A stretch of 64,000 bases of DNA, taken from NCBI RefSeq assembly GCF_024700885.2, contig NZ_CP117016.1. One strand, given 5' to 3'. This DNA comes from Escherichia coli (GTDB taxonomy: Bacteria > Pseudomonadota > Gammaproteobacteria > Enterobacterales > Enterobacteriaceae). Under the pieces are notes generated by a model. That model was not told where the DNA came from, searched no databases, and worked only from the letters and a program-made list of their open reading frames with translations. The position numbers and the translations under genes were made by a program. Positions 954 to 16,599 of the stretch are shown piece by piece. Numbering within the stretch: position 1 is the stretch's first letter; each line of letters begins with the position of its first letter.

Positions 954-2380
954 CAGTTGCCCCCTTTCAGGGTTAACAGGTATTCCGAGGTGATCTCAGT
1001 CTCAAACGTCAGTCGCTCCAGCGGCGGTGGTGGCGTATATTTGTAGCTCAGCAACAGGTGCCCGGCGGCCAGCTCCGTCTCCGGATTGCGGGCCGGATCA
1101 AACCAGCAACGGAAGCCCAGTACCGCACCATCACCAGTCATTTTGCGACCGTAGGCGTTGACCGACTCCGTCAGTGCATCAATCAGCGCCTGAGTAATCG
1201 GCATGTCGATGTACTGCTGGCTGAAATAACGAATGGACTCGTTGATCACATCACCGGTGCGGCGAACGTTCTCAAAGTTACGCATATGGGTGACCGTTGG
1301 CCATGCTGCCGTCCGGTTACCCCACAGACGAAGGCCGCTGCCGTAACTGCTGAATACCGTGGTGATCCCCTGTTCGTTAAGCAGGTTTACCTCACTCTGC
1401 GGGTCATCAATCATCGCGGACAGCTGGCGCTCCACGCCGGTGATCCCCAGAATCTCCTGATTGGAGGATGACCACCAGTAGCCCTTGTCCAGATCGACTC
1501 TGGCACGCAGACCTGCTGCACGCTGGCTGAGCGGCTCCAGACGCTCTGTGTTTGTCACCGGGTCATATACCTTCACATGCGGATAGCACAGACGGACGCG
1601 GTCGGAGCTGGTATTGAAGTTGATGGTGCCTTCCGGGCCACGACCTGCCAGAGCCTGTGCAAAGGTGGTACCGACAGGCGCATCAATGTAGGTTACCGCG
1701 CCCAGCTTCTCTGCCATGGCGATAAGCTCAACTGCGACACTCTTCTGGGTGCAGAACACCGGCGCAATCAGAATTTTGGCGAAATAGCCGTACAGGTTGA
1801 AGCTGTCGTTAAGCAGCTTCATGCCGGTTCGGTTTCCGGCGCTGTTCACCCCGCCGATGATGTCCGCCGCAGTCACCTTCGACGGGTCCGCGTACTCATA
1901 GCTCACCTTCACGCTGCCACCGGCCTCAATAGCCTTGCCCAGGTTCGTGAGCACACCCGCCTGCGCATCAACACGGTAGTCCGTGTTCGCCGTGTGGGTG
2001 GTGCTGCCTTCACTGTTTTTCACCACCACATTAGCGACAACCGGATGCGCCAGTCTGGCCTGCCCTGTCGATTTGTCAAAGGTAACCACCTCATCCTCGA
2101 TCGCCGTTTTATGTTTCGCCGGGTCGAGGACGTTAATGACCAGAACGGTGCCTGCACCATGGTCATAAATCGCATCCAGCGCCTGCGGAATGGTAAAGCC
2201 GGTGAACTGGCTGCCAAATGCCGCTGCGTCTTTCTCAGACAGGCACTGTACCAGCGTATTGACATCCCCCATCGGGGCGGTACCAATCAGGCCAATAACG
2301 GCAGATTTCACCGTTTTAACCGGGCGGGCTCCGTTTTCCACCTCAATGGTTTCGGGACCATGCAGATAGTTAGCTGCCAT
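953..2380 (-). CDS. phage tail sheath protein (Mu L-like)
   Basis: 475 aa, sheath-like size and position upstream of tube gene; family resemblance from memory. Confidence 0.75.
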   Translation of the reverse strand: MAANYLHGPETIEVENGARPVKTVKSAVIGLIGTAPMGDVNTLVQCLSEKDAAAFGSQFTGFTIPQALDAIYDHGAGTVLVINVLDPAKHKTAIEDEVVTFDKSTGQARLAHPVVANVVVKNSEGSTTHTANTDYRVDAQAGVLTNLGKAIEAGGSVKVSYEYADPSKVTAADIIGGVNSAGNRTGMKLLNDSFNLYGYFAKILIAPVFCTQKSVAVELIAMAEKLGAVTYIDAPVGTTFAQALAGRGPEGTINFNTSSDRVRLCYPHVKVYDPVTNTERLEPLSQRAAGLRARVDLDKGYWWSSSNQEILGITGVERQLSAMIDDPQSEVNLLNEQGITTVFSSYGSGLRLWGNRTAAWPTVTHMRNFENVRRTGDVINESIRYFSQQYIDMPITQALIDALTESVNAYGRKMTGDGAVLGFRCWFDPARNPETELAAGHLLLSYKYTPPPPLERLTFETEITSEYLLTLKGGN

Positions 2381-2624
2381 GGGCGTCCTCCGTTTTCACT
2401 TCGCTGTCACTGCTGCTTCTGCGCTTTGGTGACTGCACAGCCGGTGTGACGGCGGGTTTAGTATCTTCTGGTACCGGCGTCAGATGCTTCAGCGCCACCA
2501 GTACCTTCACGTAGTCATGCTCCTCCGGCAGGGAAACCGCCTTCCCCGGCCAGAGCAGGATTTCGGTTCCGTCCGACAGCGTGACGCCGCTGGCCGGGCC
2601 GGAATAGCGGTATGCTTTCATCAC
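2370..2624 (-). CDS. hypothetical small phage protein
   Basis: 84-aa ORF overlapping neighbours by a few nt in the late operon. Confidence 0.4.
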   Translation of the reverse strand: MMKAYRYSGPASGVTLSDGTEILLWPGKAVSLPEEHDYVKVLVALKHLTPVPEDTKPAVTPAVQSPKRRSSSDSEVKTEDAHGS

Positions 2625-3085
2625 TCGCTTTCCTCATAGTTCACTTCGGTTAACAGCGGGCCGGACGGTAAATCGCTGTCTTCGATAAAGATGCTTTCAG
2701 TCGCGAAGTCGAGGGCGTATTGCCACAGCCCCCTGACTTCACCGATAAACACCTCGCGGGTCAGCCAGATACGGCGGCGGCAGCCGGGCGGGGTGTGGCC
2801 ACCGAGAATGCGGCGGACAGCATCCAGGACATTAATCGCCCCTTTTTTACCGTTGAGCTGGCGGAAGACCACCGTGACGCAGAGCTGGATAGTCTGAGAC
2901 TGGATCACCGCACCGGTATCATCCGGCCTGTCAAAGCGCGAACCGGCATAGCTCAGCAGCAACGCGCCAACCGGATGGTTCAGGCGATATTCAGCCGGTT
3001 TCTCCGGGAAGTACTCCACCTGCAGTTGCGGCAGCTTCTCGCGTAACCGGGCCAGTACCGCATCAAGGACGGGCAGAACGTTCAT
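2621..3085 (-). CDS. phage virion protein (Mu gp37-like, head-tail joining region)
   Basis: 154 aa, translationally coupled to flanking late genes. Confidence 0.5.
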   Translation of the reverse strand: MNVLPVLDAVLARLREKLPQLQVEYFPEKPAEYRLNHPVGALLLSYAGSRFDRPDDTGAVIQSQTIQLCVTVVFRQLNGKKGAINVLDAVRRILGGHTPPGCRRRIWLTREVFIGEVRGLWQYALDFATESIFIEDSDLPSGPLLTEVNYEESE

Positions 3086-11712: not shown

Positions 11713-12359
11713 TTCTGTAATCCTTCCCGTTCATCCAGCAGCGCGTTTATCTGGTTCCGCCAGCGACGACATTGCCATGCGTTGTCGATGATGTTGGCGA
11801 GAACGTCACGCTGGGAGACACCCGAATCGCGTAACCGGGTGTCAGTGGTTTCAGGTTGCCCGGTCGCTGTGCCAGAGCGGGTGCCAGTGGCGGCAACTGA
11901 GTCTGAATGACCGGTGTCGACGGATGCGTTGTCATATCCGAGTGCGGCGTTGTACTGGCGCACGAAACCGCGAGTAAACACGCACTCAATGGGATGACTC
12001 TTACCTTTTTCATCAATCCAGCGCTGTGTGACATCGTTAATTTGCCCCTGTAGTTGTTTGTTCCGGCTCTCCAGTTGAGCAATCTGCTCAAGATAACCGG
12101 CTTCAGCCCGCTGCCCGGCGGCCACCTGCTCCTGATACCGTCTGGCCCAGGCCCGCAGCGCAGCATTCTCAAGCGTTGCCTGCTCCGTTTTGTACGCGTC
12201 AAATGCTGACTGCAACTGACTTAGCGCGGTATCACCGTCACGCTTTGCAGAGTCATGACCACTTCTGTATCCCATGGCATACAGGCCGACCAGAAAGGCA
12301 TTGATAAGAATGGCCAGCAGAATGCCGCGCCACGGCAGCTTTTTAACCAGATGCCACAC
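11709..12359 (-). CDS. i-spanin (Rz-like); GTG start at 12359 preferred, alternative ATG at 12461
   Basis: N-terminal TM (GILLAILINAFLVGLYAMGY) followed by coiled-coil region; directly after endolysin; contains an out-of-frame embedded lipoprotein ORF. Confidence 0.55.
   Translation of the reverse strand: MWHLVKKLPWRGILLAILINAFLVGLYAMGYRSGHDSAKRDGDTALSQLQSAFDAYKTEQATLENAALRAWARRYQEQVAAGQRAEAGYLEQIAQLESRNKQLQGQINDVTQRWIDEKGKSHPIECVFTRGFVRQYNAALGYDNASVDTGHSDSVAATGTRSGTATGQPETTDTRLRDSGVSQRDVLANIIDNAWQCRRWRNQINALLDEREGLQK
11747..12013 (-). CDS. o-spanin (Rz1-like outer-membrane lipoprotein), embedded in the i-spanin gene
   Basis: Alternate frame inside the i-spanin gene: MKKVRVIPLSACLLAVSC with lipobox AVSC, Pro-rich mature part. 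Confidence 0.6.
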   Translation of the reverse strand: MKKVRVIPLSACLLAVSCASTTPHSDMTTHPSTPVIQTQLPPLAPALAQRPGNLKPLTPGYAIRVSPSVTFSPTSSTTHGNVVAGGTR

Positions 12360-13083
12360 AACTGCTGCCTCCCCATGTGAGATATCGCGGTGCCAGTTCG
12401 CGCAGGATGCGCTGCGGATAATGGCGGTTCTCCCGCCAGCTGGCCGCATTGCGTCCGGCATTCACCGTGGCGACATGTCCGAACCAGCGGGTGCTGTCCA
12501 GACCTTTCTGTGATGCAAGCCGCCTGTCCCGTTGTACCCAGCCCAGACCACCGTTATAGCCCGACAGTGTCATGGCCATACGCTCGCAGTCACTGGCGGC
12601 GCTGACACGCTGCCACAGCCAGCGGTCATAGCTGACCAGCGCCCGGATAGCCCATGCCGGATTAAACGGCTCACGACTGCTCAGCATCGGTATCAACTGG
12701 CTTATCCAGTCGGCAGTGGCAGGCATGAACTGCGCCAGTCCCTGAGCGCCAGCCGGCGAGATCGCATCAGGTCGCCAGCCGCTTTCCTGATGCAGTTGCG
12801 CGGCGAAATCGGCCACCGGCGCAGACAGTCCCCATTCAAGCCGGGCATTACGGATCACATCATCGCGATACTGCAGCGCAGCCTGCGGAGGTTGTGCTGC
12901 GCATGCCTGGCTGAAAAAGCCGCCACACCAGAGCAACATTGCGACAAAGAATACCCATGCCATATGAACCAGAAAGGTCCCGGCGCGGACTGACAGGCGT
13001 TCGGTTCTGATGAAGACCCGAAAGGCTTCGAAAGCCAGTTTCAGGGACATGCATACAATCCAGGTGATCTGCGGCCAGTTCAT
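12343..13083 (-). CDS. endolysin, lytic transglycosylase (SLT domain) with N-terminal signal-anchor
   Basis: GLAQFMPATA motif and ES/GW transglycosylase signature; hydrophobic N-terminus; follows holin-like gene. Confidence 0.7.
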   Translation of the reverse strand: MNWPQITWIVCMSLKLAFEAFRVFIRTERLSVRAGTFLVHMAWVFFVAMLLWCGGFFSQACAAQPPQAALQYRDDVIRNARLEWGLSAPVADFAAQLHQESGWRPDAISPAGAQGLAQFMPATADWISQLIPMLSSREPFNPAWAIRALVSYDRWLWQRVSAASDCERMAMTLSGYNGGLGWVQRDRRLASQKGLDSTRWFGHVATVNAGRNAASWRENRHYPQRILRELAPRYLTWGGSSCVASG

Positions 13084-13085
13084 GA

Positions 13086-13436
13086 TTAAAGCCCCATCGC
13101 AACAGCCAGGCAGACCGCTGCAACAATCAGTGCACGGCGGATTAACGCAGCAGAAAACACCAGGTGAAGGCCGGTCTGTACCGGGAAACGCCCTTCAGCC
13201 ATCAGCCTGTCGTCATGTTTCAGGTACTGACCGGGACGGGCTTTGGGGAAGAGCGAACGGTCAAGCCAGTAACCCAGCACTGCTGCCAGCGTGATGAGTG
13301 CCAGCTTGTAGATCACAACAGGCAGCTGCTGTGGTGAGACCAGAGCGATGGTGCCCAGCAACAGCACTGAGGTCAGCAGCCAGCCGCTGAGGCGAGGTTT
13401 TTTAACAAGGGGAATGAATTTTTTCAGTTTTTTCAT
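13086..13436 (-). CDS. holin-like membrane protein (3 predicted TM); start set at ATG 13436
   Basis: AAGGAGA 5 nt upstream of ATG 13436; three hydrophobic segments; first gene of the lysis cassette. Confidence 0.5.
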   Translation of the reverse strand: MKKLKKFIPLVKKPRLSGWLLTSVLLLGTIALVSPQQLPVVIYKLALITLAAVLGYWLDRSLFPKARPGQYLKHDDRLMAEGRFPVQTGLHLVFSAALIRRALIVAAVCLAVAMGL

Positions 13437-13566
13437 GTGTGTCTCCTTATCTGGTGGAGACAGCATCACAAATACAGGGCGCGAAGGATTTTAAAGCGCG
13501 TTAAGAGAGCCGGGGATACGGGATGTGCAGGATAAACGATGAATTATTCACAGAGGAGAATACGAT
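13437..13566. promoter_or_regulatory. divergent intergenic region: putative late (lysis) promoter and promoter of the kinase-like gene
   Basis: 130-bp non-coding gap between divergently oriented genes that both have strong RBS. Confidence 0.4.
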
Positions 13567-14295
13567 ATGACGCAGACACTGAATCCGGTCATCACTGTCA
13601 CCGTGTCCGGTCCTGTGGGCAGCGGTAAAAGTTACGTACTGGCGCGAATAGAGGAAGTGGTGAAACAGGAATTCGGAAACAGCGTCATTGTCGACGCCGC
13701 AGACGTGGACGGTGAGCGCCGTATGAGTGGGGATGATCTGAGCACATGGCAGAAACCACGGGCTGGCACAGTGATCAGGCTGGAGGAATACACGGGACAG
13801 GGCCTGTTGTCATACGGCGAGGAGCGTATCTGTCGGACGAATGAGCTGCTGGATGTTATATGCCCCACGGGCCGGCAACCCTGGATACTGCCCGATGCAC
13901 TGCATGCCACCATTGCGGCACTGATGACAGTTTACGATCAGGAGCTGCTCATGAAGGAGTTACGTAAACTCACTGGTCAGTCAACAGAATGTTGTTCGTC
14001 CCCGAAGTACGGCAAACAGGAACACATCCCGATTAACCAGCCTCCCCGGTTCTTCGACGAATACCTTCTGACACCGGAAAATAAAGCTGAGCATGAAGAG
14101 ATCAAAGCGGCGTTGTTCCGGGAAATCAGGAAGATTGCTGAAATGCAACTGGAGGGCGGGCTGGACAGAGTGATGGCGAGAGGAGAATGGGCATCGCTGT
14201 TTGAAAGAGTTTCCCCGGAATTACTTCCCCTCGCACTGGCTATCGGGATTATGCAGACAGCGGATAAACCTCACTTACGTTCATTAAACACGTAA
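13567..14295 (+). CDS. P-loop kinase-like protein (Walker A GPVGSGKS followed by hhhDAAD, as in small-molecule/nucleotide kinases)
   Basis: GAGGAGA RBS 7 nt upstream; motif VTVSGPVGSGKSYV ... SVIVDAADVD; 242 aa. Confidence 0.6.
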   Translation: MTQTLNPVITVTVSGPVGSGKSYVLARIEEVVKQEFGNSVIVDAADVDGERRMSGDDLSTWQKPRAGTVIRLEEYTGQGLLSYGEERICRTNELLDVICPTGRQPWILPDALHATIAALMTVYDQELLMKELRKLTGQSTECCSSPKYGKQEHIPINQPPRFFDEYLLTPENKAEHEEIKAALFREIRKIAEMQLEGGLDRVMARGEWASLFERVSPELLPLALAIGIMQTADKPHLRSLNT

Positions 14296-14675
14296 CGCAT
14301 AATCCGGGATACGCATTCAGCGATGACTGCATTTTCACCGGTTTTTACTGCATCCAGAAGTGACTCTTTAAATGGTACGGGCCGGGGCTGCAGAAAGGTC
14401 GGCATGGCATTGAGCAGACAGAGCGTTTTTTCCGTGAGGACGACATCAGCCGCTCCCACAGCCAGCAACTGAGAGTAACGAATATAGCTGTTATCCCGAA
14501 GCCATATCAGCGTATCAATAAAACACCGGCACTTTTTCTGGTCGTGATCAACCTGGTCCGGGATATCGAAAAAACCAGAATAAATCAAAACCTGAGGTGC
14601 CGGATGCGTGTTCAGTAATCGGCAGAATATTTTGCCGGTGAGTACATAAAAATCATCATTTAAGGAGTGCATCAT
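14271..14675 (-). CDS. hypothetical 134-aa protein, convergent with and overlapping the 3' end of the kinase-like gene by 25 bp
   Basis: Only long ORF covering 14296-14673; E. coli-like codon usage by eye; no recognisable motif. Confidence 0.45.
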   Translation of the reverse strand: MMHSLNDDFYVLTGKIFCRLLNTHPAPQVLIYSGFFDIPDQVDHDQKKCRCFIDTLIWLRDNSYIRYSQLLAVGAADVVLTEKTLCLLNAMPTFLQPRPVPFKESLLDAVKTGENAVIAECVSRIMRYVFNERK

Positions 14676-14889
14676 GAATCCCCGATTAACGTTAACAGAA
14701 CATCAGCGCCGTGCTGAAGCAGTGAACAATGTTCTGGAAGATATTATCCGGTTATACCGCGGAGAACTGAGTGTCTGTCGTGCCGCTTTTCATTTTCAGG
14801 GAATACAAAAGCAGTTTGATACTTCTGTTTTTGCAGAAGGTATTACTTATGCCCTGGACCGGATAAGGTCAGAAAATCGCCCCGGATAA
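14674..14889 (+). CDS. hypothetical 71-aa protein
   Basis: AAGGAG 6 nt upstream of ATG; start codon overlaps the start codon of the 134-aa ORF on the opposite strand. Confidence 0.5.
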   Translation: MNPRLTLTEHQRRAEAVNNVLEDIIRLYRGELSVCRAAFHFQGIQKQFDTSVFAEGITYALDRIRSENRPG

Positions 14890-15079
14890 TCCCTAAACCA
14901 CATTAACAGAAATCCCGCCATCCCTGCCGCATCATGAAAGAACGACCAGCCCGGCACCCGAAAGCCGGGCTGGTCATCGCCCCACAGGAATGCGCTGTGA
15001 GCCGACCAAGGTTCAGTCAGTCTCGCGAGACCTGACCAGACTGCCATATTTTTTAATAATTGTAAAAGGCTTGCAGATT

Positions 15080-15844
15080 ATGAAAATGCAGACATTACCC
15101 ATCGTGCCGTGGATTGGTGGCAAACGCCGCCTTGCAAAACACATTCTGCCGCTGTTTCCGGCGCATGAATGTTATGTGGAGCCGTTTTGTGGGGCAGCAG
15201 CGCTCTATTTTCTTAAGACACCCGGCAAGATCGAAGTCATCAATGATATCAACGGTGAACTGGTGAATCTGTACCGGGTGGTAAAGCATCACCTGGAAGA
15301 ATTTGTCCGCCAGTTCAAATGGGCGCTGGTCAGCCGTCAGATCTACAAATGGCTGCAGATCACCCCGGAAGAAACACTGACGGATATCCAGCGTGCGGCA
15401 CGGTTCTACTACCTTCAGAAGCAGGCGTTTGGCGGCAAGGTGGCAGAGCACAGCTTCGGTACCTCCACCACATCCCCGCCACGCTTCAACCTGCTACGTA
15501 TTGAAGAAGAACTGTCAGCGGCACACCTGCGGCTTTCCAGAACAGTCATAGAACACATGGACTGGCAACAGTGCATTGAGCGTTATGATCGTCCGCACAC
15601 GCTGTTCTACTGCGACCCACCGTACCTGGGTACGGAAGGCTATGGTGTGGATTTTCCTGAAGGGAACTACTCGCGGCTGGCAGAGCTGGCCCGGTGCATC
15701 AGAGGAAAAATGATAATTTCGGTGAACGACATCCCGCAGATGCGCGAGGTGTTCACTGGACTGAACATACAGACAGTGAATATCAACTACAGTCTGGCGG
15801 GTAAACCCACGCCGCGCCGTGAACTGCTAATCTGCAACTTCTGA
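15080..15844 (+). CDS. DNA N6-adenine methyltransferase, Dam family (orphan)
   Basis: DPPY catalytic motif (FYCDPPYLG) and N-terminal PWIGGKRRL motif typical of Dam-family enzymes; no adjacent restriction endonuclease. Confidence 0.8.
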   Translation: MKMQTLPIVPWIGGKRRLAKHILPLFPAHECYVEPFCGAAALYFLKTPGKIEVINDINGELVNLYRVVKHHLEEFVRQFKWALVSRQIYKWLQITPEETLTDIQRAARFYYLQKQAFGGKVAEHSFGTSTTSPPRFNLLRIEEELSAAHLRLSRTVIEHMDWQQCIERYDRPHTLFYCDPPYLGTEGYGVDFPEGNYSRLAELARCIRGKMIISVNDIPQMREVFTGLNIQTVNINYSLAGKPTPRRELLICNF

Positions 15845-15874
15845 AACAAAACCGGAAAGCACAATGCTTTCCGG
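15844..15874 (-). terminator. putative rho-independent terminator downstream of the repressor gene
   Basis: 9-bp perfect stem CCGGAAAGC/GCTTTCCGG, followed on the minus strand by a T-rich tract. Confidence 0.4.
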
Positions 15875-15960
15875 TAAACCAAACAACTTCCACTATGTCA
15901 CTGGCGATGTTTTCTGAAAGCATCCAGATCAACCACCTGTCCTTTGTGTCCGGGTCAGTA

Positions 15961-16317
15961 TCAGCCTGCGATTTTTCCTGGTTTTGGCTGAGTATAGAAT
16001 CGCCCAATCTCAAGAAATGAGCGTTGTTGGTCTGGTGTCATGTCGTCAAAAGTATCTATTAGTTTTTGTTTTTCTGGGGAAATTTGATTCTGGTTTCTAG
16101 TCATACCATCTGTGCTCATTCCAGTGAGCAACCAATTTACATCAACATTAAACTCTTGATGCATCTTTAACAGAAACTCCCCTCCAGGCATCGCCTTTCC
16201 ATTTTCAATCTGACTGATACCACCATTAGAAATACCTAAACGAGCTGCAAATTCTCTCTGGTTCAACCCTGCTTTCTTCCTCACAGAAATAACGCGCTCT
16301 CCTATATCTTTGCTCAT
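15961..16317 (-). CDS. phage repressor, XRE-family HTH (Mu c analogue)
   Basis: HTH LNQREFAARLGISNGGISQIENGK; divergent from ner-like gene. Confidence 0.7.
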   Translation of the reverse strand: MSKDIGERVISVRKKAGLNQREFAARLGISNGGISQIENGKAMPGGEFLLKMHQEFNVDVNWLLTGMSTDGMTRNQNQISPEKQKLIDTFDDMTPDQQRSFLEIGRFYTQPKPGKIAG

Positions 16318-16340
16318 AAAAGTGAATCTCTATCTTGATA

Positions 16341-16358
16341 TGCTCATAATTATGAGCA
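16341..16358. promoter_or_regulatory. 18-bp perfect palindrome TGCTCATAATTATGAGCA in c/ner intergenic region (candidate operator)
   Basis: Seen directly; lies between divergent repressor and ner-like genes. Confidence 0.5.
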
Positions 16359-16410
16359 ATAATCTAACACATATAAGGCAAACATCATTGCATCAACAAA
16401 GGAGACAACG

Positions 16411-16599
16411 ATGACTGCAGAACAAGTCAAAGCTCTCTTCCGCCAGCGCGGGATCACTTTCACCCGCTGGGCAGAAGAAAACGGCTACAACCGCAATGAG
16501 GTATACCGCGTTCTCAACGGGCAGACCAAAGCCCGTTACGGTAAATCCCATGAAATCGCCGTGAAGTTGGGACTGAAATCAACAGCTCAGGCGGCCTAA
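16411..16599 (+). CDS. ner: Ner-like DNA-binding protein
   Basis: 62 aa, Ner/Nlp-like sequence; AAAGGAGA RBS; first gene of early operon. Confidence 0.7.
   Translation: MTAEQVKALFRQRGITFTRWAEENGYNRNEVYRVLNGQTKARYGKSHEIAVKLGLKSTAQAA

What the first reader, a model, noticed from the sequence alone, without database searches (positions are those of the whole stretch)
14271..14889. Head-on overlapping start codons and convergent 3' overlap in the cargo module
The ATG of the 71-aa ORF (14674-14676, plus strand) overlaps the ATG ATG of the 134-aa ORF (14675..14670, minus strand), so the two genes initiate on opposite strands at the same nucleotides. The 134-aa ORF also overlaps the kinase-like gene 3' end by 25 bp, convergently. 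This geometry forces antisense transcription and ribosome interference, and could work as a mutually exclusive expression switch between lysogenic and lytic states.
Basis: seen in the sequence. Interest (0 to 1): 0.5.

Follow-up and report, generated by a model that had tools for sequence, protein, structure and literature searches.

The report
Conserved back-to-back interlocked phage gene pair
Two small prophage genes start on opposite strands at the same four bases (CATG), and this arrangement is kept in many distantly related temperate phages, so the two messages must be antisense to each other's ribosome-binding sites; what the pair does is still unknown.

Summary
The plus-strand ATG (14674-14676, 71-aa gene Z) and the minus-strand ATG (14675-14673, 134-aa gene Y) share two bases inside the palindrome CATG. 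Y overlaps the 3' end of the 242-aa P-loop gene X by 25 bp. NCBI's PGAP pipeline annotates all three genes this way.

The window is a BcepMu-like transposable prophage, found in about 9% of complete E. coli genomes, including ST131.

Both genes are real:
- Y belongs to a diverse family (phrog_2266) with a predicted winged-helix fold.
- In the P2-like lineage, dN/dS is 0.09 for Y and 0.19 for Z.

The CATG start-to-start geometry, with each Shine-Dalgarno site inside the partner's first codons, recurs in 10 of 14 Y lineages examined. These include Serratia, Salmonella-type Mu-like prophages, 44 P2-like loci and a locus whose Z type is annotated in Pseudomonas genomes. The background rate is about 1.5%.

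In most contexts Y is the only reverse-oriented gene in an array that includes Z. The C-terminal domain of X is itself Z-like.

The most likely mechanism is antisense-coupled reciprocal expression. This is inferred: no promoter could be assigned. "Ribosome interference" is not supported. A role as the phage's lysis-lysogeny switch is unlikely, because natural Y deletions exist.

The parts
14271..14675 (-). Gene Y, 134 aa. Predicted winged-helix protein of family phrog_2266. The second possible start is at 14672.
14674..14889 (+). Gene Z, 71 aa. Small three-helix-bundle protein (phrog_4490) of the wider 'ZA' family.
   Evidence: ORF and PGAP CDS. phrog_4490. AlphaFold2 pLDDT 91, three helices. 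Homologues in Serratia, Salmonella-type and Pseudomonas-annotated loci.
14661..14685 (.). Interlocked translation-initiation segment. It holds the Shine-Dalgarno site of Z (AAGGAG, 14662-14667, inside Y codons 3-5), the palindrome CATG (14673-14676) that carries both start codons, and the Shine-Dalgarno site of Y (GGGGA, complement of 14679-14683, inside Z codons 2-4).
   Evidence: Sequence. Anti-SD duplex energies of -8.7 kcal/mol for Z and -5.7 for Y. Both strands are less structured than shuffled sequence here. The same layout is found in 10 lineages.
13567..14295 (+). Gene X, 242 aa. N-terminal Walker-A (P-loop) domain (residues 1-74) and a C-terminal Z-like domain (about residues 178-231). 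It converges on Y.
   Evidence: phrog_3787. Only weak P-loop hits. The N-domain is 54% identical to the L013 neighbour. The C-domain is homologous to the Serratia 89-aa gene and to the Z family (hhalign probability 90%, E 1.5e-6; PHROG cross-hits).
14271..14295 (.). 25-bp convergent 3' overlap of X and Y. No terminator-like site was found between the two genes.
   Evidence: The overlap is 37 bp in Serratia and 4 bp in L013.
14620..14637 (.). 18-bp near-perfect palindrome CGGCAGAATATTTTGCCG inside Y codons 13-19, 37-54 nt upstream of the Z start. Candidate operator or promoter element.
   Evidence: Near-identical sequence at the same place in Serratia (L003 5034-5055), keeping the rare codons ATA and CGA. 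The natural deletion in L026/L027 ends just to its left, at 14621.
14940..14975 (-). G+C-rich hairpin between Z and the Dam gene. On the minus strand it is followed by a T-rich tail, so it is a likely minus-strand terminator that shields the Y-Z pair from leftward transcription.
   Evidence: Fold z-score -3.5. Sequence. A comparable hairpin with a T-run lies at the same place in Serratia.
15080..15844 (+). DNA adenine methylase gene, downstream of Z on the same strand.
   Evidence: phrog_56. PGAP annotation. Same order in Serratia.

Best explanation

**Shown by the sequence.** The two translation-initiation regions are interlocked on opposite strands: each Shine-Dalgarno site lies in the partner's first codons, and both start codons lie in one CATG.

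**What follows logically.** There is no intergenic DNA. A Y mRNA must therefore start inside or beyond Z, and a Z mRNA must start inside or beyond Y. The two RNAs are perfectly complementary across both ribosome-binding sites.

**Context.** In most cases, including this window (X -> <- Y | Z -> Dam ->), Y is the only reverse-oriented gene in a co-directional array that contains Z. Transcription of the surrounding operon therefore makes Z sense RNA and full-length Y antisense RNA.

**Inferred function.** Z-like domains, including the one fused to the P-loop domain of X, are functional partners or antagonists of Y. The biological output is not known. Lysogenic conversion, exclusion or defence is plausible, given the accessory hotspots where the cassette sits.
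For: **Geometry and annotation:**

**Both genes are real.**
- The Y family is diverse, and the N-terminus aligns to the start.
- In 34 and 32 distinct P2-type sequences, dN/dS is 0.09 for Y and 0.19 for Z.
- Structure models are confident.

**Geometry is conserved.**
- CATG plus both ORFs are found in Serratia, L013, all 44 P2-type loci, and L011, L071, L073, L074, L075 and L070.
- The background rate is about 1.5%.
- A Shine-Dalgarno site for Z lies inside Y codons 3-6 in all Z-bearing loci, though it is weak in L075. It is absent from loci without Z.
- The initiation regions are unstructured on both strands.

**Topology.** Y is the lone reverse gene in 9 of 12 contexts.

**No terminator-like site** on the plus strand between X and Z. 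The natural Y deletion fuses X, Z and Dam into one uninterrupted array.

**Embedded nucleotide-level constraint in Y.** Synonymous diversity is depressed at codons 41-50 of P2-type Y (permutation P 0.0004). A palindrome using rare codons is conserved between E. coli and Serratia.

**Z-like domain in X:**

**Lower G+C** in Y and Z (0.46, 0.44) than in their neighbours (0.53), as expected of an acquired cassette.
Against: - No promoter for Y, Z or X scores above shuffled background, and candidates are not positionally conserved between lineages. Transcript ends are therefore unknown.
- Conservation of the geometry could be a frozen arrangement rather than selected regulation. Each ribosome-binding site is inside the partner's coding sequence, so indels are forbidden anyway.
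- In the E. coli lineage Y looks weakly constrained (pN/pS 0.68 on few substitutions). It is lost in some prophages while Z persists, so Z does not depend on Y.
- Four Y lineages have no Z.
- No physical Y-Z interaction was tested.
- DNA binding by Y rests on fold similarity alone.
Confidence: 0.5

Rival explanations
1. Compaction without regulation. The two genes are simply packed as tightly as possible in a size-limited phage genome and are expressed independently, for instance at different times from distant promoters. The arrangement persists only because each ribosome-binding site lies in the partner's coding sequence, so any insertion or deletion is lethal to one gene.
For: Phage genomes are dense, and the same region also has a convergent overlap of variable length. 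No dedicated promoters or operators could be shown. Y family members function without Z in four lineages. Z persists without Y.
Against: Divergent overlaps are otherwise extremely rare: 2 of 663 overlapping pairs in E. coli and about 1.5% in the held loci. The same phase is found with two Z families that show no detectable homology. The recurrent 'lone reverse gene' topology and the depressed synonymous variation inside Y point to more than packing. Whatever the reason it is kept, complementarity of the two mRNAs across both ribosome-binding sites is unavoidable.
Confidence: 0.25
2. In this E. coli prophage Y is a decaying or silent gene. The plus strand is one operon, X - (long untranslated spacer) - Z - Dam, so the head-on start overlap has no present function here.
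For: Y carries a nonsense codon in L023 and a 318-bp deletion in L026/L027, while X, Z and Dam stay intact. Among E. coli-type variants pN/pS for Y is 0.68. No terminator-like site lies between X and Z on the plus strand. The phage PhiKM record does not annotate Y.
Against: 491 of 498 E. coli genomes with the segment cover at least 80% of it. In 9 of the 12 E. coli-type viral loci with a usable match, Y is full length. It keeps all family-invariant residues, a Shine-Dalgarno site and an unstructured initiation region. The pN/pS estimate rests on five sequences and few changes. The 53%-identical Serratia orthologue keeps the same layout.
Confidence: 0.15
3. The cassette is a toxin-antitoxin-like or abortive-infection or defence module. 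Y is the DNA-binding regulator or antitoxin. Z-like domains (Z itself, and X with its P-loop domain) are the effectors. The antisense coupling keeps the effector off until infection or induction. This is compatible with the best explanation and concerns the biological output.
For: The pair sits in known accessory or defence hotspots of P2-like phages, next to variable cargo such as Fic, a nucleotidyltransferase with an HTH partner, and a 572-aa ORF whose N-terminus looked DUF262-like by eye and was not searched. It also sits in a P4-like element directly upstream of a HipA-like kinase gene. A Z-like domain is fused to a P-loop domain in X.
Confidence: 0.1

Closest known systems
Excludon-type loci (Listeria; long mRNA leaders antisense to a divergent neighbour)
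   Same: Divergently oriented protein-coding genes whose mRNAs overlap in antisense at their 5' parts. One message can act both as mRNA and as antisense repressor of the other.
   Different: Here the overlap is forced by zero intergenic distance and covers both ribosome-binding sites symmetrically. The unit is a compact two-gene mobile cassette of about 620 bp in phages. Transcript maps are lacking, so the long-leader feature is inferred and not shown.
Face-to-face promoter switches of P2/186-type phages (186 pR/pL, P2 Pe/Pc), from general knowledge
   Same: Divergent genes served by convergent promoters, giving transcriptional interference and a choice between two expression states.
   Different: Those switches have an intergenic control region with mapped promoters and operators. 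They encode the immunity repressor and Cox/Apl and decide lysis versus lysogeny. Y-Z has no intergenic region and is accessory and dispensable. It occurs alongside the phage's own immunity region.
IS10 RNA-IN/RNA-OUT and type I toxin-antitoxin loci such as symE/SymR (cis-antisense over a start codon), from general knowledge
   Same: A transcript made from the opposite strand pairs with the 5' end of an mRNA, including its Shine-Dalgarno site and start codon.
Phage morons (reverse-oriented accessory genes inside operons of temperate phages), from general knowledge
   Same: Lower G+C than the neighbours, variable position, reverse orientation of Y relative to the surrounding operon, and presence or absence among close relatives.
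   Different: A typical moron is one gene with its own promoter and terminator. Here a reverse gene is locked head-to-head to a forward gene at the level of the start codons.

Membership tests
Pfam DUF2513 (name given to the Serratia homologue by UniRef) | Significant match to the Pfam profile | tested here: not met
   No Pfam hit for Y even at E<=10. None of 28 family members matched DUF2513.
PHROG phrog_2266 (unknown function) | Full-length match to the family profile | tested here: met
   Y E 2.6e-44 over profile positions 1-142 of 144. Ten relatives E 1e-25 to 3e-61.
Winged-helix nucleic-acid-binding proteins | Winged-helix fold (three helices followed by a beta-hairpin wing) | tested here: met
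   [not shown]
Winged-helix nucleic-acid-binding proteins | Demonstrated DNA or RNA binding | not testable with these tools
   Needs a gel-shift or footprinting assay. Winged-helix domains can also mediate protein contacts, as the cullin and cohesin hits show.
Excludon / antisense-coupled divergent genes | Divergent protein-coding genes | tested here: met
Excludon / antisense-coupled divergent genes | Mapped transcripts that overlap the neighbour in antisense | not testable with these tools
   An overlap of at least about 25 nt follows from the positions of the two Shine-Dalgarno sites. Transcript ends are unknown, and promoter scans were at background.
Excludon / antisense-coupled divergent genes | Anticorrelated expression of the two genes | not testable with these tools
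   No expression data were available. Literature searches found nothing on these proteins.
Type II toxin-antitoxin system | Two co-transcribed adjacent genes, one with a known toxin fold or family | tested here: not met
   The genes are divergent. No Pfam, NCBIfam or PADLOC toxin or antitoxin match. The Z fold search was uninformative.
Type I toxin-antitoxin system | Small hydrophobic toxin peptide plus a non-coding antisense RNA | tested here: not met
   [not shown]
Known anti-phage defence systems (PADLOC-DB 2.0) | Match to a system component model | tested here: not met
   No hit for Y or Z. X has only weak P-loop matches (E 0.003-0.05).
Phage lysis-lysogeny switch (immunity region) | Located at the immunity region and required for prophage maintenance | tested here: not met
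   A separate repressor and Ner-like pair lies at 15961-16599. The cassette sits at unrelated positions in other phages. Y is deleted in natural prophages.

The most novel reading that the evidence does not exclude
Probability: 0.25. Interest if true: 0.75.

Novelty: new variant of a known kind. Interest (0 to 1): 0.55.

Why it matters
Divergent gene overlaps are almost absent from bacterial genomes. Here one is conserved down to the nucleotide phase across Mu-like prophages, P2-like prophages and a P4-like element.

If the antisense coupling is functional, it would be a minimal natural design for mutually exclusive expression of two proteins without any intergenic control DNA. That is useful both as a regulatory principle and as a synthetic-biology part.

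The analysis also flags a conserved winged-helix and Z-domain partnership in phage accessory hotspots that no database names. The prophage is present in about 9% of complete E. coli genomes, including the ST131 clone.

It shows as well that gene callers often miss or mis-strand the small partner gene: it was uncalled in five of the loci examined and probably called on the wrong strand in a sixth.

Tried and rejected
- **Pfam, NCBIfam and PADLOC** searches for X, Y and Z gave nothing beyond weak P-loop hits for X. The UniRef label 'DUF2513' was not reproduced.
- **PDB sequence search** with the Y profile found only spurious designed helical proteins.
- **The T7 gp5.5/5.7 similarity** noted by the annotators of phage Midge was not reproduced in that search. 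No T7 protein appeared at E<=1.
- **Two promoter scans** and a cross-lineage scan produced no hits above shuffled expectation and no positionally conserved promoter. The P2-type candidates are leads only: TAGTCA-16-TAAATT inside Y, and TTGATA-18-CATTCT just past the Z stop.
- **Rfam** found nothing in 13000-16500.
- **Tum antirepressor of phage 186.** I considered Y as a candidate because of its position near DinI-like genes in P2-like phages. tblastn of both Y types against 50,697 phage records hit only 11 records, and none was 186 or P2.
- **Common origin of P2-type Z and this window's Z.** Three profile-profile comparisons were not significant.
- **dN/dS for the E. coli-type genes** is unreliable because there are too few substitutions.
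- **An alignment-based locus search** failed because the Y family is too diverse.
- **Literature searches** for DUF2513, overlapping start codons, the protein accessions and ST131 transcript maps found nothing relevant.
- **Dam-site-dependent switch.** I considered and dropped this idea. There is no GATC within 14547-15200.

Full report
**Context.** The window carries a BcepMu-like (Bcepmuvirus) transposable prophage of E. coli.
- The 3-kb region around the finding is 100% identical to many E. coli chromosomes and 99.9% identical to phage PhiKM.
- The 681-bp core is present in 498 of 5,426 complete E. coli genomes, including ST131 strains such as JJ1886.
- The gene order is:
  - lysis and structural genes leftward (holin up to 13469)
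  - X, 13567-14295 (+)
  - Y, 14271-14675 (-)
  - Z, 14674-14889 (+)
  - Dam methylase, 15080-15844 (+)
  - repressor, 15961-16317 (-)
  - early genes and the transposase, rightward

**The observation.** It is correct at the stated coordinates.
- The sequence TAAGGAGTGCATCATGAATC (14661-14680) contains the palindrome CATG at 14673-14676.
- The plus-strand ATG of Z and the minus-strand ATG of Y are both inside it and share two bases.
- X and Y overlap convergently by 25 bp. PGAP annotates all three genes with exactly these limits.
- Neither start can reasonably be moved. Y has no other start codon before the invariant Phe9 of its family.
- Z has a strong Shine-Dalgarno site (AAGGAG) 6 nt upstream of its ATG.
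- One qualification applies. Y begins ATG-ATG, and its Shine-Dalgarno site (GGGGA) is better spaced for the second ATG. The true distance between starts in E. coli and Serratia may therefore be +1 rather than -2. This changes nothing about the interlock.

**Both genes are real.**
- Y matches phrog_2266 over its full length. It has a diverse set of 125-155-aa relatives at 28-53% identity that align from the very N-terminus.
- Z (phrog_4490) is a confidently modelled three-helix bundle (pLDDT 91) without informative structural neighbours.
- In the best-sampled lineage (P2-like phages; 34 and 32 distinct sequences) both genes are under purifying selection, with dN/dS 0.09 for Y and 0.19 for Z.
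- Among E. coli-type variants there are too few changes for a reliable estimate.

**The geometry is conserved.**
- The Serratia orthologues (53% identity for Y) read GGAGGTCATCATGTC at the junction, with the same two ORFs.
- A Salmonella-type BcepMu-like prophage (Y 36% identical) has called genes at 2293-2502 (-) and 2501-2944 (+).
- Three P2-like phage genomes (Midge, ST147-VIM1phi7.1, FSL SP-004) annotate a 63-64-aa gene and a 143-aa Y homologue with the same 2-nt overlap.
- All 41 related IMG/VR loci keep CATG and both ORFs.
- Five further diverged loci (L011, L071, L073, L074, L075) have an uncalled 66-88-aa ORF starting in CATG at the Y start.
- So does L070, once its Y start is placed at the family-consistent ATG.
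- Four lineages have Y without Z.
- Z-type proteins like that of L073 are annotated in Pseudomonas genomes.
- In every Z-bearing locus a Shine-Dalgarno match for Z lies in Y codons 3-6, weakest in L075. Loci without Z have none.
- A conserved nucleotide motif (ATCGGGGAT) upstream of Y in E. coli and L071 is read in different Z frames. It therefore acts as the ribosome-binding site of Y, not as coding sequence.
- The chance rate of this geometry among other long ORFs in the held loci is about 1.5%. In a reference E. coli genome only 2 of 663 overlapping pairs are divergent (PMC4161906).

**What the geometry implies.**
- Both Shine-Dalgarno sites and both starts lie within 14661-14685. Each mRNA must therefore contain the complement of the other's ribosome-binding site, and each promoter must lie within or beyond the partner gene.
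- Both initiation regions are less structured than shuffled controls, as expected for active start sites.
- Ribosomes on the two mRNAs cannot interfere directly. Interference can only come from polymerase collision or RNA pairing.
- I could not locate promoters. Two scans gave hits at or below shuffled expectation, and cross-lineage candidates were inconsistent.
- Two hints of embedded elements exist:
  - In P2-type Y, synonymous diversity is significantly depressed at codons 41-50 (permutation P 0.0004), next to a recurrent promoter-like match.
  - In E. coli and Serratia, an 18-bp palindrome (14620-14637) is conserved with rare codons 37-54 nt upstream of Z.

**Topology.**
- In 9 of 12 contexts Y is the single reverse-oriented gene in a co-directional array that continues with Z. 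Examples:
  - X -> <- Y | Z -> Dam in this window and in Serratia.
  - Replication gene A and cargo -> <- Y | Z in P2-like phages.
  - Holin -> <- Y | Z -> endolysin in L070.
- No terminator-like site separates X from Z on the plus strand.
- Natural variants with a clean 318-bp deletion of Y (window 14304-14621) join X, Z and Dam into one array.
- This fits a model in which operon transcription yields Z and antisense-Y, while Y is made from its own promoter when the operon is silent.
- Y and Z have lower G+C than their neighbours, as expected of an acquired cassette.

**An unexpected link.**
- The C-terminal domain of X is a Z-like domain. The Z-family profile aligns to X residues 178-231 with hhalign probability 90% and E 1.5e-6.
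- The Z proteins of L070, L071 and L073 cross-hit the C-terminus of phrog_3787.
- The Serratia gene in the place of X is just this domain, at 89 aa. The Salmonella-type X shares the P-loop N-domain and the Z-like tail.
- Y is thus flanked on both sides by Z-like coding sequence on the other strand. This argues that Z-like domains and Y work together.
- P2-type Z (phrog_2454) is not detectably related to this family.

**Function.**
- The function is unknown. No Pfam, NCBIfam, PADLOC or Rfam match exists, and no literature was found.
- The cassette sits in accessory hotspots next to variable cargo. Neighbours include Fic, a nucleotidyltransferase with an HTH partner, a 572-aa ORF whose N-terminus looked DUF262-like by eye and was not searched, and a HipA-like kinase.
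- It is not the phage's immunity switch. A separate repressor region exists, and Y is dispensable in nature.

**Verdict.**
It remains inferred.
- 'Ribosome interference' and a lysis-lysogeny role are not supported.
- The arrangement is best filed as a new, compact variant of antisense-coupled divergent genes (excludon-like, with face-to-face promoter logic), involving two uncharacterised protein families.

Noticed in passing
[not shown]
   Followed up: partly
window 13567-14295 (X), residues about 178-231: The C-terminal domain of the P-loop protein X is homologous to the small Z proteins. The Serratia gene at this position is only that domain. X is a mosaic of a P-loop N-domain, shared with a Salmonella-type prophage, and a Z-like tail.
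   Followed up: yes
window 14925-15086, minus strand: The best promoter-like match in the region (TTTTCA-16-TACAAT, 15086..15059, minus strand) points leftward into a strong hairpin with a T-rich tail (14975..14940). Together they could make a roughly 120-nt RNA antisense to the leader of the Dam methylase gene. Nothing in Rfam matches.
   Followed up: partly
window 14620-14637 and L003 5034-5055: The 18-bp palindrome CGGCAGAATATTTTGCCG inside Y is almost identical in Serratia, although the genes are only 53% identical in protein. It uses the rare codons ATA and CGA. A second perfect palindrome, TTAACGTTAA, lies at 14686-14695 inside Z.
   Followed up: partly
L011, L071, L073, L074, L075, L070: The small Z partner was not called by the gene finders in five loci. 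In L070 a 77-aa gene was probably called on the wrong strand, and the Y start was set at an upstream GTG instead of the CATG ATG. The family is under-annotated.
   Followed up: partly
L075 2001-4109: In a P4-like element (AlpA and Ogr/Delta genes nearby) the Y homologue is followed on the same strand by a weak HipA_2-like kinase gene and a 286-aa gene. This resembles a regulator-kinase toxin operon.
   Followed up: no
L076 (E. coli JJ1886, NC_022648.1 1027862-1031025): In the ST131 reference strain JJ1886, an IS66-family element lies immediately upstream of a shortened X gene (636 bp instead of 729 bp). The 5' end of X and its upstream region are therefore disrupted there.
   Followed up: no
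window 13083: The lytic transglycosylase gene (12343-13083, minus) also starts in a CATG that opens a 70-aa ORF on the other strand, inside the holin gene. This looks like a chance example and served as part of the background estimate.
   Followed up: partly
L028-L068, about 190-225 nt upstream of the Y start (just past the Z stop): A highly conserved non-coding block (ATAAACGAGAGATAACATATTGATATAGATCC...), with an invariant TTGATA, lies between the Z stop and the cos-proximal end of P2-like genomes. Its role (Y promoter, terminator or packaging-related) is open.
   Followed up: no
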